Counted from the first letter of the stretch, positions 6,031 through 8,560 are shown. The stretch: 32,000 nt of DNA from Haloferax volcanii DS2 (GCF_000025685.1 NC_013967.1:1830001-1862000), one strand, 5' to 3'. Made by a program: numbers and translations. The notes: a model not told the origin generated them from the letters alone.

Positions 6031-6627
6031 ATGCGCCAATTCATCGTCACCGGCCACGACGCGCCGACGACGCCCGACTTCTCGCTCGACGACATCGCGG
6101 GCGGGGCCGGCCGACTCGACGTACTCTGTCGCTGTGTCAACTCCGCGTTCTTCCTCTCGCACGACATCCGCGAGGACGTTCGGGTTCATCTCGTCCTCGG
6201 CGACGAGTACACCGTCCGCTTCGAAGGCTCGGAACTCCGTCGGCTCAACCCCGACGAGCGCTCCACCGCTGCCCTGATTCGCAAGGCGCTGGAGAAGCGC
6301 GAGGAGGCCATCGGCCACATGCCCGCCGAGTCGTCGCCGGGTGTCTCTATCCGCCGGATGGGCTTCGAGACGACGCTGGAAGAGGCCGCCAGCGACGCGA
6401 CCGTGGTCGAACTCCACGAGGACGGCGACCCCGTGGTTCAGGTCGAACCGCCCGAAAACCCGCTTTTCGTCCTCTCGGACCACCACGACTTCACCGACGA
6501 GGAAGCCGAGTTGCTGGCGGCCGCCGCCGACGAGCGGGTCCGCCTCGGCCCCGAAATCCTCCACGCCGACCACTCGATTACGGTCGCGCACAACTACCTC
6601 GACACGGCGGGCTATTCGCGGTACTGA
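6031..6627 (+). CDS. trmY: tRNA (pseudouridine54-N1)-methyltransferase TrmY (SPOUT, DUF358/COG1901)
   Basis: ORF 5569-6627 trimmed to ATG 6031 ([49 protein letters not shown]...). I recognise it as the COG1901 SPOUT family. The upstream part of the ORF is Pro/Arg-rich non-coding-like sequence. Confidence 0.85.
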
Positions 6628-6678
6628 GTCGGGGTCGGCGGTGTGCCACGGCGTCTGACGGTGGCCCGCAATCACAAC

Positions 6679-6688
6679 TGTTAAACGC
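6679..6688 (+). promoter_or_regulatory. TATA-like box for tRNA-Pro
   Basis: CTGTTAAACG is centred about 28 nt upstream of the tRNA 5' end (6712). Confidence 0.4.
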
Positions 6689-6711
6689 GACGGTGGCTTG
6701 CCTCAAAATGC

Positions 6712-6784
6712 GGGCCGGTGGGGTAGCTTGGTATCCTTCGGCCTTCGGGTGGCCGTAACCTCAGTTCGAATCTGAGCCGGCCCA
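6712..6784 (+). tRNA. tRNA-Pro (anticodon CGG), 73 nt, CCA not encoded
   Basis: Hand fold. Acceptor GGGCCGG/CCGGCCC with discriminator A. Anticodon stem CGGCC/GGCCG (6739-6743/6751-6755) with loop TTCGGGT, anticodon CGG at 6746-6748. T-arm CTCAG-TTCGAAT-CTGAG. The D-arm has GG in its loop, but its exact pairing and the position-26 spacing are slightly irregular in my fold. Confidence 0.85.
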
Positions 6785-7140
6785 TATTCTCCCCACCTTT
6801 CACGACCCGCGAGCGATAGCGAGTGGTCTGAAAGGTGTGGGCGATTTCACCCGGTGAAGATTCGAATCAAGGAACGAACGAAGTGAGTGACCGTGGTTCA
6901 CGCGAGCACAGCGAGCGTGAAGGGGCGAGACGACGTCTCGCTGGATTCGAATCTGAGCCGTACTCGCGAACGAAGTGAGCGGGTGCCTGTGACGAGCGAA
7001 GCGAGTCACAGTGGCCCATCTCTACCCCTTTCAACGCCAACGAGCACCGCGTAGCGTGTGCGAGTCCCCCCGAAACGGTTGTCTGGGTGACTGAAGATTC
7101 GAACGTCCGAGCGACAGCGAGGGAAGTTCGAATCTGAGAC
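6785..7140. repeat. Non-coding cluster of GC hairpins with a conserved (AGCGA)x2 loop, interleaved with partial copies of the tRNA-Pro 3' half
   Basis: Hairpins at 6793-6840, 6897-6921, 6987-7011 and 7101-7129. TTCGAATCTGAGCCG from the tRNA (6765-6779) is repeated at 6946-6960 and GTTCGAATCTGAG at 7126-7138. TGAAGATTCGAA occurs at 6855-6866 and 7092-7103, and CGAACGAAGTGAG at 6875-6887 and 6967-6979. Only implausible ORFs cover the region. Confidence 0.75.
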
Positions 7141-7301
7141 GGCATCTTCACGGACAACCTACCTGAGTTTTGGACAGTCGTTGCAAACGGGCGGAACCAC
7201 CGACACGGCCGCCGTTTCGACACCGACGAATCCACGGTGTCTCCGACGACTAAACGACCACTGGCAGTCGTGACCCCGCTGTCGCCCGAGAACCGAAGCA
7301 A

Positions 7302-7313
7302 TTATCTATTTTA
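7302..7313 (+). promoter_or_regulatory. TATA box for the substrate-binding protein gene (leaderless or near-leaderless)
   Basis: TTATCTATTTTA lies 18-29 nt upstream of ATG 7331. Confidence 0.45.
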
Positions 7314-7330
7314 GGTGGGCCTAAAAAACT

Positions 7331-8560
7331 ATGGAACACGACGAGACGCCACGGACGGGACTGACGCGGCGCGACTACGTGAAGTACGGCGGCGCGGCGG
7401 TCGGCGGCGGCCTGCTCGCCGGCTGTACCGGAGAGGGCGGTTCGGAGTCGACGACGGACGCCGAGACCGAATCGACGACCGAGACGGCAACGGAAACGGA
7501 GATCGAGACGCCCGAGGACAGTTCGTACTCGGTGACGATGTCGCCGGTCGGCACCGTCGAGTTCGACGAGCCGCCCCAGAGCATCTTCACGCGGCTGACC
7601 CACCACGCGGGGATGGCGTTCGCGCTCGGCCGCGGCGACGACGTGAATGCGGTCAACGGGCCGGCGTACTACGACACGACGTGGAAGCAGTTCACGGCGC
7701 GTCTCCCGGGCGTCGAGGTCGACTGGGCGGACCTGTACCCCTCGTGGGAGACGAGTAAGGAGAAGCTCTACGAACTCGACAGCGACGTGCATCTGGCCGA
7801 CCCCGCGTGGGTCGTCCAGCTCGAACAGTGGGACATGGCCGACATCGAGGAGGTCGCCGAGAACATCTCGCCGTGGTTCGGGAACTCGTTGAGCGCCCGT
7901 CACGCGTCGCCGACGGACGAGTGGACCGGCGACTACGAGTACTACACGCTGTGGGAGCAGTTCGAGAAGGTCGCGCAGATGCTCAGAGAGGAGGAGCGCT
8001 ACGAGGCGCTTGCGGCCGTCCACGACGACGTGCTCGCCACCACCGAGGCGGGGCTGCCGCCGGAAGACGAGCGCCCGAGCGTCGTGTTGCTCACCGCGTC
8101 CGACATCGAGAACCAGGTCTGGGCGTACACGGTCGGAAACCCCGGCTTTATGACTTCGCACATCCGGCCGCTCGCACCGCACGACGCGTTCGAGGGCTCT
8201 ATCGAGTCGGGGTCGACCGTCGACTTCGAGGCGCTGTTGGAGGCCGACCCCGACGTTCTGCTCTTCCTGAGCGGGATGCAGCCGAGCGTCAGCACGAACG
8301 ACCTCCGGGCGACGCTCGAATCCGACCCCGTCGCCGCGGAGATTTCGGCGGTCCAGAACGGTCGGGTCTACCCGCAGGGCGCGCGCTATCAGGGGCCGAT
8401 TCTCAACCTCTTCCAGCTTGAGATGAGCGCCAAGCAGTTCTATCCCGAGGCGTTCGGGGAGTGGCCGACCTCGGACGGCGGCCCGTACCCCGAAATCCCG
8501 GAAGACGAACAGCTGTTCGACCGCCAGCACGTCGCCGACATCATCAACGGCGAGTTCTGA
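7331..8560 (+). CDS. Tat-secreted lipoprotein; ABC-type periplasmic substrate-binding protein of the iron-siderophore/cobalamin (BtuF/FhuD-like) class
   Basis: Twin-arginine motif TRRDYVKYGG, lipobox LLAGC and a Thr/Glu-rich linker (TTDAETESTTETATETEIETPED), followed by a domain of ~330 aa. Family assignment is from general resemblance only. No cognate permease or ATPase gene is in the window. Confidence 0.7.
   Translation: MEHDETPRTGLTRRDYVKYGGAAVGGGLLAGCTGEGGSESTTDAETESTTETATETEIETPEDSSYSVTMSPVGTVEFDEPPQSIFTRLTHHAGMAFALGRGDDVNAVNGPAYYDTTWKQFTARLPGVEVDWADLYPSWETSKEKLYELDSDVHLADPAWVVQLEQWDMADIEEVAENISPWFGNSLSARHASPTDEWTGDYEYYTLWEQFEKVAQMLREEERYEALAAVHDDVLATTEAGLPPEDERPSVVLLTASDIENQVWAYTVGNPGFMTSHIRPLAPHDAFEGSIESGSTVDFEALLEADPDVLLFLSGMQPSVSTNDLRATLESDPVAAEISAVQNGRVYPQGARYQGPILNLFQLEMSAKQFYPEAFGEWPTSDGGPYPEIPEDEQLFDRQHVADIINGEF

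What the first reader, a model, noticed from the sequence alone, without database searches (positions are those of the whole stretch)
6785..7135. Four hairpins with a conserved (AGCGA)x2 loop but unrelated self-complementary stems behind tRNA-Pro
H1 has an imperfect stem at 6793-6807/6825-6840 with loop AGCGA-T-AGCGA (6812-6822). H2 has stem TTCACGC/GCGTGAA (6897-6903/6915-6921) with loop AGCAC-AGCGA. H3 has stem CTGTGAC/GTCACAG (6987-6993/7005-7011) with loop AGCGA-AGCGA. H4 has stem GAACGTCC/GGAAGTTC (7101-7108/7122-7129, one mismatch) with loop AGCGA-C-AGCGA. The loop is kept while the stems differ yet remain complementary. That pattern is expected of a selected RNA or ssDNA hairpin recognised through its loop, not of random GC-rich DNA. 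Linear relatives CGAACGAAGTGAG occur at 6875-6887 and 6967-6979. A further degenerate hairpin lies at 7044-7061, and a 9-bp stem-loop lies at 7185-7217. No compositionally plausible ORF covers the region.
Basis: seen in the sequence. Interest (0 to 1): 0.6.

Follow-up and report, generated by a model that had tools for sequence, protein, structure and literature searches.

The report
Hairpin cassettes trailing a tRNA-Pro gene
The four hairpins are real: they belong to short, non-coding, transcribed cassettes, built from direct and inverted copies of the tRNA's own 3' end and capped by a conserved mini-hairpin motif, that pile up behind many tRNA genes of salt-loving archaea and that I could not find described in the literature.

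Summary
Observation confirmed and extended. Window 6785-7143 is an array of two ~130-nt non-coding cassettes behind tRNA-Pro(CGG). Each cassette ends in a copy of the tRNA's last ~20 nt (X). Each has also been expanded by a ~50-nt double-hairpin insert, which explains the exact 181/181-nt spacing of the X copies. H1 and H4 are not unrelated stems. Their arms are the tRNA trailer or T-loop segment plus its inverted copy. H2 and H3 lie in the two inserts.

The conserved cap GA-GCG(N)1-2AGC-GA matches the published 'mini-hairpin DNA' consensus. The 'linear relative' at 6967 is itself a capped hairpin with a compensatory A-U pair.

The same architecture follows about 20 of 54 tRNA genes and some protein genes in this genome. 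A junction motif occurs in 171 of 198 sampled Halobacteria and in 0 of 54 other genomes of the phylum.

Published RNA data show that the + strand is transcribed through the array, with 3' ends inside it. In one congener a 35-kb island carrying a tyrosine integrase separates the tRNA from the same cassettes, so X is a genuine att core.

Best reading: protein-less cassettes stacked at an integrase att site, whose sense-strand hairpins are under selection. Function is unproven. This scan already found the family on other DNA of this genome.

The parts
6712..6784 (+). tRNA-Pro(CGG), HVO_1990. Its last 22 nt (6763-6784) form X0, the att core.
   Evidence: ARAGORN. 100% identical in 20 congeners. 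The 22-nt block is repeated at the far end of an integrase island in G008.
6785..6896 (+). Cassette B body: trailer T, H1 (6791-6841, cap GAGCGATAGCGAG at 6811-6823), inverted copy of trailer and tRNA end (to AGATTCGAA at 6858-6866), then turn-around L2 (6867-6896, containing GAACGAAGTGAG).
   Evidence: (I1). Orthologs show two compensatory pair changes.
6897..6960 (+). X1 copy (TTC at 6897-6899 and GAATCTGAGCCG at 6949-6960), split by a 49-nt double-hairpin insert at 6900-6948. The insert holds H2 (stem 6897-6903/6915-6921, cap 6904-6915) and a GC hairpin with a GAC loop (6924-6942).
   Evidence: Insert absent from G002 and G015, where B runs straight into an intact X. H2 hit by model R1 at E = 2e-4 although it was not a seed. 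Folds.
6961..7013 (+). Insert of 52-53 nt splitting X1 between CCG and GCCCA. It holds a hairpin at 6960-6986 (cap GAACGAAGTGA, inner pair A-U) and H3 at 6987-7011 (cap GAGCGAAGCGAG at 6994-7005).
7014..7124 (+). Remainder of X1 (GCCCA) and cassette A body: trailer, degenerate L1 hairpin with GCGTAGC cap (7041-7064), inverted copy of trailer and tRNA end, and 5' arm and cap of H4 (H4 = 7095-7135, cap 7109-7121).
   Evidence: Cassette A is the only cassette in G004, G014 and G019. The same L1 cap lies behind tRNA-Ser(TGA) and tRNA-His.
7125..7143 (+). X2, the terminal and slightly diverged copy of the tRNA 3' part (AGTTCGAATCTGAGaCGGC). End of the array.
   Evidence: D2, 95%. Terminal copies are truncated at different points in relatives.
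6785..7277 (+). Read-through transcript tail of trmY-tRNA-Pro, with RNA 3' ends at 6935, 6961, 7001 and 7031.
   Evidence: PMC7237163 Supplementary Tables 1 and 4, and Fig. 5 text. PMC6490895 transcript 1836042-1837277.
7036..7277 (-). Annotated intergenic sRNA HVO_1990s, antisense to cassette A.
   Evidence: PMC6490895 supplementary transcript table.

Best explanation
Window 6785-7143 is an array of two members (B and A) of a family of protein-less 'hairpin cassettes' found across the class Halobacteria.

A cassette of about 105-150 nt reads: gene trailer T, cap L1, inverted copy of T and of the gene end (T'X'), turn-around L2, then a fresh direct copy of the gene end X. X is the 20-22 nt from the T-loop to the 3' end of the tRNA, which is the att core used by tyrosine-integrase islands. 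The array therefore reads X0-[B]-X1-[A]-X2. The tRNA stays intact and the cassettes stack behind it.

I infer that cassettes are gained, lost and shuffled by recombination at the X copies: site-specific recombination by integrases supplied in trans, plus homologous exchange. In H. volcanii each cassette was further enlarged by a ~50-nt double-hairpin insert carrying H2 and H3.

The hairpins form in the sense strand. Their tips are closed by GA-GCG(N)1-2AGC-GA, a self-nucleating mini-hairpin flanked by tandem G.A pairs. That would explain why the 'loop' is conserved while the arms follow the local target.

The array is transcribed as a tail of the tRNA precursor. Its most likely cellular effect is to structure, stop or stabilise that read-through RNA. 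Each cassette also carries a copy of the tRNA's T-rich trailer, and RNA 3' ends map there.

Shown: anatomy, family, distribution, turnover between species, transcription, and X acting as an att core. Inferred: the mode of spread and the function.
For: Anatomy:
- Direct and inverted copies of X, with conserved caps.

Genome-wide:
- Motif hits within 500 nt downstream of 20 of 54 tRNAs, against about 2 expected; only 2 upstream.
- Direct copy of the tRNA end downstream of 20 of 54 tRNAs; inverted copy downstream of 18 of 54 and upstream of 0.
- The arms match each tRNA's own T-stem and acceptor sequence.
- The same build sits at two protein-gene ends.

Turnover in 20 congeners with an identical tRNA:
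- Arrays of 0, 1, 2 or 3 cassettes.
- A/B hybrids.
- Inserts present or absent.
- Cassette lengths 127-133 nt in relatives.

Att core:
- In G008 a 35-kb island lies between the tRNA and the B+A array.
- A PF00589 integrase sits about 300 nt from the array, and the 22-nt X is repeated at the junction.
- Cassette A's X copy starts at the same base.

Selection on pairing:
- Covariation across loci.
- Two compensatory changes among orthologs of H1; the pair-keeping one-sided changes counted (3 cells) are all G.U.
- The GAACGAAGTGAG cap keeps its inner helix as A-U, and all 5 copies lie in cassettes.
- The sense strand folds better than the antisense strand: -20.5 against -17.4 kcal/mol, P = 3e-4.

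Cap:
- Matches the GCGNAGC / GCGNNAGC mini-hairpin consensus.
- GCGNAGC is enriched 3-fold downstream of tRNAs on the sense strand only.

Transcription:
-.

Distribution:
- 171 of 198 genomes and 61 of 66 genera of the class.
- 0 of 54 genomes outside it.
Against: - No integrase lies in this window or within 100 kb.
- No excision or integration of a cassette has been observed.
- A ~130-bp double-stranded circle is very small for tyrosine recombination.
- The X copies lack the 5' T-stem half of a symmetric core.
- The inverted arm X' must be re-tailored for every target, and plain integrase recombination does not explain that.
- The two ~50-nt inserts are not bounded by X copies.
- No similar DNA was found in phage, plasmid or viral-contig collections.
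- RNA 3' ends at 6935 and 7001 fall inside hairpins rather than at their feet, so a clean terminator role is not shown.
- The sense/antisense energy difference partly reflects the cap itself.
- Cap-variant counts for the 13-nt form do not show the G.U over A.C bias.
Confidence: 0.55

Rival explanations
1. The att sites fold as single strands. The cassette is an archaeal analogue of integron attC or CTX-phage attP. In single-stranded form the unit X.T-L1-T'X'-L2 snaps back into a dumbbell whose stem imitates the double-stranded tRNA-end target. A Xer-like recombinase exchanges one strand and replication completes the insertion. The caps are DNA mini-hairpins that nucleate folding.
For: - It predicts exactly the observed product X-T-L1-T'X'-L2-X and tandem stacking.
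- It explains why X' covaries with each target.
- The caps match a consensus that is far more stable as DNA than as RNA and is known from single-stranded DNA origins and hairpin promoters.
- GNA triloops predominate: 13 exact 12-nt caps.
- The palindrome is imperfect, 71%, with internal mismatches, as in attC.
- The G008 integrase has an Xer-type SAM-like N-domain.
Against: - No single-stranded DNA stage, helper gene or free cassette is known.
- Nothing was found in virus or plasmid collections.
- The same structures are abundantly transcribed, so RNA-level selection can explain the strand bias.
- G.U-type pairs do not separate RNA from single-stranded DNA.
Confidence: 0.17
2. The hairpins are free-standing functional RNA elements, recognised by a protein through the conserved loop. 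They evolved in place as processing, stability or termination signals for the tRNA precursor, independent of any mobile DNA.
For: - Continuous + strand coverage and several RNA 3' ends in the array.
- The cassette region behind tRNA-Ser(GGA) is annotated as an sRNA, and its 3' end lies about 10 nt past the X copy.
- Sense-strand bias and compensatory changes.
Against: - It does not explain the direct copies of the gene end, the shared boundary with an integrase att core, the copy-number turnover between species, or the same build at protein-gene ends.
- The cap is a poor RNA loop: the review gives r(GCGAAAGC) a Tm of 39 C against about 80 C for DNA.
- No Rfam family matches.
- No 3-nt bulge for a K-turn or K-loop (by inspection).
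Confidence: 0.15
3. The cassettes are inert scars. They are what remains of successive large integrative elements that entered at tRNA-Pro and were later deleted down to their att-flanking arms, with no present function or mobility.
For: - The tRNA is an active integration hot spot: islands directly follow it in G012, G008, G006 and G003.
- The large G008 island carries a capped hairpin (loop related to GAGCGA-N-AGCGAG) just inside its attR.
- Terminal X copies are truncated at varied points.
Against: - One conserved architecture and narrow size range (102-153 nt) at about 20 different tRNAs and across 61 genera.
- Covariation and compensatory changes argue for selection on pairing.
- Independent deletions would not converge on the same unit.
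Confidence: 0.1
4. The hairpins are REP/BIME-like elements spread by an IS200/IS605-type Y1 (HUH) transposase acting on single-stranded hairpins.
For: - Extragenic hairpins at gene 3' ends, transcribed, sometimes in inverted pairs.
- H. volcanii has two Y1_Tnp genes, one directly behind the tRNA-Ala(GGC) cassette array.
Against: - Y1_Tnp is found in only 134 of 198 genomes. It is missing from cassette-rich genomes such as G018 (19 junction motifs), G006 and G153.
- REP stems are conserved copies, whereas here the stems follow the target.
- The tRNA-Ala neighbour is an ordinary IS with tnpB and its own end hairpin.
Confidence: 0.03

Closest known systems
attL/attR duplications and serial integration at tRNA 3' ends by tyrosine integrases (archaeal and bacterial islands, e.g. 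SNJ2-type and Xer-like elements)
   Same: - Direct repeats of the segment from the T-loop to the tRNA 3' end.
- The tRNA is restored.
- Tandem stacking.
- Same left boundary as a real integrase island in G008.
   Different: - Units are about 130 nt and carry no gene.
- Each carries an inverted copy of the target and conserved caps.
- One architecture serves about 20 different targets.
- No integrase is nearby.
Integron attC sites and CTX-phage attP (recombination sites that fold in single-stranded DNA)
   Same: - Imperfect palindromes whose structure, not sequence, is conserved.
- Cassettes stack in arrays at one site.
- The predicted insertion product matches.
   Different: - No IntI or attI platform.
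- No GTTRRRY core.
- Cassettes are ORF-less.
- Single-stranded recombination is not demonstrated here.
REP/BIME elements with RAYT transposases
   Same: Short extragenic palindromes behind genes, co-transcribed, able to affect termination and mRNA stability.
   Different: - Stems are not conserved copies.
- They are tied to copies of the gene end.
- The Y1 transposase phyletic pattern does not fit.
t-elements (tRNA-like processing signals) of Haloferax volcanii
   Same: They carry an authentic tRNA T-loop-to-acceptor 3' strand and lie in transcripts next to tRNA or rRNA genes (for what t-elements are).
   Different: - The T-loop bases are paired with an inverted copy instead of forming a T-arm.
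- ARAGORN sees no tRNA-like fold.
- RNA 3' ends are not at the discriminator position.
Mini-hairpin DNA, d(GCGNAGC) and d(GCGNNAGC) (Hirao and co-workers)
   Same: The caps GA-GCGAAGC-GA, GA-GCGA(C/T)AGC-GA and GCGTAGC fit the consensus exactly.
   Different: It is known from phage single-strand origins, priming signals and N4 promoters. It has not been reported as the tip of long target-derived hairpins in archaeal chromosomes.

Membership tests
Haloarchaeal tRNA-end hairpin cassettes (family noted earlier by this scan) | The unit ends in a direct copy of the upstream tRNA's last ~20 nt. | tested here: met
   X copies at 6946 (split) and 7125-7143. Intact X between cassettes in G002 and G015.
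Haloarchaeal tRNA-end hairpin cassettes (family noted earlier by this scan) | An inverted copy of the tRNA end precedes each direct copy, joined by a conserved GAGCGA-rich turn-around. | tested here: met
   AGATTCGAA at 6858 and 7095, with L2 and the H4 cap.
Haloarchaeal tRNA-end hairpin cassettes (family noted earlier by this scan) | Copy number varies between close relatives; the array is transcribed with the tRNA. | tested here: met
   (0-3 cassettes). (published RNA data for this locus).
Integrase att-site array | The repeat equals the att core of a tyrosine-integrase element at the same tRNA. | tested here: met
   G008: PF00589 integrase, 35-kb island, 22-nt repeat at attR followed by cassettes B and A.
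Integrase att-site array | An integrase or element genes lie between or next to the repeats. | tested here: not met
   No ORF of note in 6785-7330. Nearest PF00589 hit is more than 100 kb away.
Integron attC cassette array | intI gene and attI next to the array; R''/R' core sites RYYYAAC / GTTRRRY. | tested here: not met
   No integrase nearby. The T-loop GTTCGAA does not fit GTTRRRY (sequence).
Integron attC cassette array | Recombination proceeds through a folded single strand. | not testable with these tools
   Needs biochemical or genetic assays.
REP/BIME-RAYT | Conserved palindrome sequence and a cognate Y1 transposase in the genome. | tested here: not met
   Stems differ between copies. 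Y1_Tnp is absent from cassette-rich genomes.
t-element | tRNA-like acceptor/T-arm fold cleaved by RNase P and tRNase Z. | tested here: inconclusive
   No tRNA-like fold found by ARAGORN. Published 3' ends are not at the discriminator. Cleavage was not assayed.
K-turn / K-loop (L7Ae site) | Tandem sheared G.A pairs next to a 3-nt bulge. | tested here: not met
   The tandem GA is possible but there is no bulge on either strand (inspection).

The most novel reading that the evidence does not exclude
Halobacteria harbour a class-wide population of miniature, gene-less integrative cassettes. Their attachment site is a snap-back single-stranded DNA dumbbell that imitates the 3' end of a tRNA or protein gene and is capped by extraordinarily stable DNA mini-hairpins. 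This would be an archaeal counterpart of integron attC or CTX-phage attP recombination. The cassettes would be mobilised in trans by host or proviral Xer-like integrases, and secondarily used by the cell as read-through stops behind tRNA genes.
Probability: 0.17. Interest if true: 0.85.

Novelty: new variant of a known kind. Interest (0 to 1): 0.62.

Why it matters
- If the cassettes are mobile, they are a new and very small class of archaeal mobile DNA. They would show how integrase att sites can be parasitised by protein-less elements.
- If they are kept for function, they are a general and so far unannotated feature of haloarchaeal tRNA transcription units. They shape 3' ends and yield small RNAs, some already annotated as sRNAs or as 'termination sites' without recognition of the repeat.
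- Either way, they bear on genome annotation, on tRNA-linked island detection (false att sites), and on the interpretation of published H. volcanii termination and sRNA maps.
- The match of the caps to the DNA mini-hairpin consensus gives a concrete way to test whether chromosomal single-stranded DNA hairpins form in a high-salt cytoplasm.

Tried and rejected
- **Rfam**, permissive scan of 6500-7500: nothing near any gathering score.
- **Generic hairpin finder**, to compare G.T with A.C mismatches. Background hairpins are as frequent elsewhere in this GC-rich genome (113 behind tRNAs, 115 upstream, 493 in 200 random windows), so the test was uninformative.
- **Cap-variant counts.** The 12-nt form shows G.T 6, A-T 5, A.C 1, which fits sense-strand pairing. 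The 13-nt form shows A.C 7, G.T 0, probably chance hits in coding DNA. I did not rely on either.
- **Y1 (IS200/IS605) transposase as mobiliser.** Rejected on phyletic grounds.
- **Viral contigs with the L2 junction motif.** Five hits, all chance matches in unrelated coding DNA.
- **blastn of the array against phage and plasmid collections.** No match.
- **K-turn/K-loop and bulge-helix-bulge readings of the cap.** Rejected by inspection: no 3-nt bulges and only a 2-bp inner helix.
- **The exact 181/181 spacing.** It looked like a constraint but is 132+49 and about 129+52 nt, a coincidence of two inserts.
- **Literature.** Searches for the motif string and for tRNA-linked repeats in haloarchaea found no description of these cassettes. 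The library is incomplete, and Hölzle et al. 2012 on t-elements could not be read.

Full report
**Setting**

The window is C1:1830001-1862000 of a 4,012,900-bp, five-replicon genome. The search tool's named control list reports Haloferax volcanii among the genomes matched, and the published H. volcanii coordinates fit this sequence. tRNA-Pro(CGG) lies at 6712-6784 on the + strand. It follows trmY (HVO_1989) and precedes HVO_1991, which starts at 7331.

**Checking the observation**

The sequence shows all four hairpins as described.

- AGCGA-N0-1-AGCGA occurs three times in 32 kb, all within 6812-7120. The expectation is 0.26, and 0 of 100 shuffles reach 3.
- Folding against dinucleotide shuffles gives z = -5.4 (H1), -2.6 (H2), -2.6 (H3) and -4.7 (H4). 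It gives -3.5 for a GC hairpin at 6924-6942 and -2.2 for 7038-7066.
- The 7185-7217 stem-loop is not significant (z = -0.6).
- The 'linear relative' at 6967-6979 is the tip of an 8-bp hairpin, 6960-6986 (z = -3.5). In its cap the inner G-C pair is replaced by A-U, giving GAACGAAGTGA.
- All five genomic copies of that double variant lie in tRNA cassettes. The single A.C variant occurs once, elsewhere.

- The tRNA's 3' part TTCGAATCTGAG recurs at 6946 and 7127, exactly 181 nt apart. Inverted copies AGATTCGAA lie at 6858 and 7095.
- H4 is therefore an inverted plus a direct copy of the T-loop segment around the cap.
- H1 is the tRNA trailer plus its inverted copy. Its pairing runs on into the tRNA itself (38-nt arms, 71% complementary).

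**A genome-wide family**

- The exact 12-13-nt cap occurs 32 times in the genome.
- With one mismatch allowed there are 316 hits. Twenty of 54 tRNA genes have one within 500 nt downstream, mostly on the tRNA strand, against about 2 expected. Only two tRNAs have one upstream.
- Downstream of 20 of 54 tRNAs lies a direct copy of at least 12 nt of their own last 24 nt. Some of these direct-copy hits come from adjacent tandem tRNA genes (Asp, Val-GAC, Gly-GCC pairs), as do the 3 upstream direct copies. Downstream of 18 of 54 lies an inverted copy of at least 10 nt. None has an inverted copy upstream.
- Read side by side, the regions share one build. After the tRNA end X and its trailer T come a cap L1, the inverted T'X', a turn-around L2 with consensus close to AGGGAGCGAACGNAGTGAGCGACCGAGG, and then X again.
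- The arms match each tRNA's own T-stem and acceptor bases. Only the caps are shared between loci.
- Spacing between successive X copies is 102-153 nt, apart from the two 181-nt spacings here and one of 224.

**Selection on pairing**

- An alignment of 14 capped hairpins from different loci shows 77% paired cells, against 29-38% when partners are slid, and covariation beyond all 500 shuffles.
- Those seeds were chosen by fold, so I ran an unbiased test on all 32 exact hits. Ten have at least 6 of 8 ungapped flank pairs, against a 5% null (P = 2e-6).
- A covariance model built from the seeds finds 21 hairpins at E < 1e-3 in the genome, including H2, which was not a seed.

**Members at protein genes**

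- One hairpin overlaps a stop codon. Its arms are the last codons and their inverted copy.
- Another is followed by a direct copy of the gene's last 24 nt plus trailer.

**Distribution**

- The L2 junction motif TTYGAANCNRSGAGC is present in 171 of 198 sampled genomes of the class, in 61 of 66 genera. Its reversed control is almost absent.
- A stricter form is found in none of 54 sampled genomes of other classes of the phylum.

**This locus in relatives**

The tRNA is 100% identical in 20 congeners, but the DNA behind it differs. Two cassette types exist.

- **Type B** has the H1-type cap and the L2 containing GAACGAAGTGAG. It is 132 nt long.
- **Type A** has a GCGTAGC-capped L1 and the H4 turn-around. 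It is 127-129 nt long.
- Some species have A only. G002 and G015 have B-X-A-X with a perfect X between the cassettes.
- The own genome and five other species carry two extra pieces inside X1. One is a 49-nt double hairpin (H2 plus the GC hairpin, 6900-6948). The other is a 52-53-nt double hairpin (6961-7013, containing H3) that splits X between CCG and GCCCA.
- This explains 181 = 132+49 and about 129+52.
- One genome has an A/B hybrid.
- Four genomes have island DNA directly after the tRNA.

In G008 the B+A array lies 35 kb from the tRNA. It is preceded by the full 22-nt X and, about 300 nt before that, by a gene with Phage_integrase and SAM-like domains. X is therefore a working att core, and cassette A's X copy begins at the same base. 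The H. volcanii locus itself has no integrase within 100 kb.

Among orthologs of H1, 91% of cells pair. Two pairs show compensatory double changes (U-A to C-G, and C-G to U-A). The pair-keeping one-sided changes counted (3 cells) are all G.U on the sense strand.

**Strand and transcription**

- Sense-strand folds are more stable than antisense folds: -20.5 against -17.4 kcal/mol over 22 hairpins, P = 3e-4, with 27 G.U pairs against 16. Part of this difference is due to the cap itself.
Berkemer et al. 2020 list + strand RNA 3' ends at chromosome positions 1836935, 1836961, 1837001 and 1837031 (window 6935, 6961, 7001, 7031). The tail is continuously covered, with mean coverage 27,240 falling to 22,939. 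Their Fig. 5 shows this very locus (PMC7237163).
- Laass et al. 2019 list a + strand transcript at 1836042-1837277 and a - strand sRNA, HVO_1990s, at 1837036-1837277 (PMC6490895).
- Behind tRNA-Ser(GGA), 3' ends lie 14 nt past the tRNA and about 10 nt past the X copy, and the cassette region is annotated as an sRNA.
- Here, 7031 lies 13 nt past the X1 remainder, in its T-rich trailer.
- Neither paper mentions the repeats.

**The cap**

GA-GCGAAGC-GA and GA-GCGA(C/T)AGC-GA fit the two published forms of 'mini-hairpin DNA', GCGNAGC and GCGNNAGC. These have two G-C pairs plus a sheared G.A pair. They are extraordinarily stable as DNA and much less so as RNA, and are known from single-stranded phage origins, priming signals and N4 hairpin promoters (PMC13037366).

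The L1 cap of cassette A (GCGTAGC) fits as well. GCGNAGC is enriched three-fold behind tRNAs on the sense strand only. The flanking GA...GA can form tandem sheared pairs, and the X'/X stem of both cassettes also contains a tandem G.A step (from the sequence).

**Interpretation**

- With about 0.9 confidence, the finding is a member of the cassette family.
- With about 0.55 confidence, the cassettes are stacked and shuffled at an integrase att core and their sense-strand hairpins are under selection.
- The function is open. A structured read-through tail or back-up stop seems likeliest, at perhaps 0.3.
- The most interesting alternative is that the unit is a snap-back single-stranded att site, like attC or CTX attP. 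It predicts the same product and explains both the target-matched inverted arm and the DNA-type caps.
- Plain scars, loop-recognised RNA genes and REP/RAYT-type spread fit less well. Y1 transposase is absent from cassette-rich genomes.

**Relation to earlier work of this scan**

The scan had already found this family behind other tRNAs and behind aspS of the same genome. I treated those notes as leads and re-tested their main claims here.

New in this report:
- the dissection of this locus into two cassettes plus two ~50-nt double-hairpin inserts;
- the integrase island that displaces the same array in a congener;
- the identification of the cap with the mini-hairpin DNA consensus;
- the compensatory cap variant;
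- the published RNA evidence for this exact locus.

Noticed in passing
G000 C1:1733440-1733690, - strand (outside the window): Four tandem 54-55-nt units upstream of tRNA-Gly(CCC). Each is a double hairpin with caps GAGCGAAGTGAG and GAACGAATGTGA but carries no copy of a tRNA end. They resemble the ~50-nt inserts that carry H2 and H3.
   Followed up: partly
window 7309-7326: Palindrome TTTTAGG-N4-CCTAAAA just before the start of HVO_1991 (a substrate-binding protein gene, by its signal-peptide-like N-terminus). It is conserved in every relative that keeps the gene. Similar copies lie further upstream in three relatives and on replicon C4 near 55.3 kb. It is probably an operator.
   Followed up: no
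G000 C1:1049100-1050100: An IS200/IS605-type element (Y1 transposase plus a tnpB-like ORF, with its own end hairpin) is inserted directly behind the tRNA-Ala(GGC) cassette array.
   Followed up: yes
window 7036-7277, - strand: The published intergenic sRNA HVO_1990s runs antisense to cassette A and H4. Its promoter and role are unknown.
   Followed up: no
L039, L050 and L051 (relatives), first ~60 nt after the tRNA: In these species the L1 cap of cassette A is replaced by a perfect hairpin, GCGAGCGAC-tgttct-GTCGCTCGC. The mirror repeat GAGCGAC/AGCGAG has become an inverted repeat, as if by template switching.
   Followed up: no
G000 C1:992119-992154 and C1:2779857-2779892: Capped hairpins at the 3' ends of two protein genes. 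One overlaps the stop codon. The other is followed by a direct copy of the gene's last 24 nt and trailer.
   Followed up: partly
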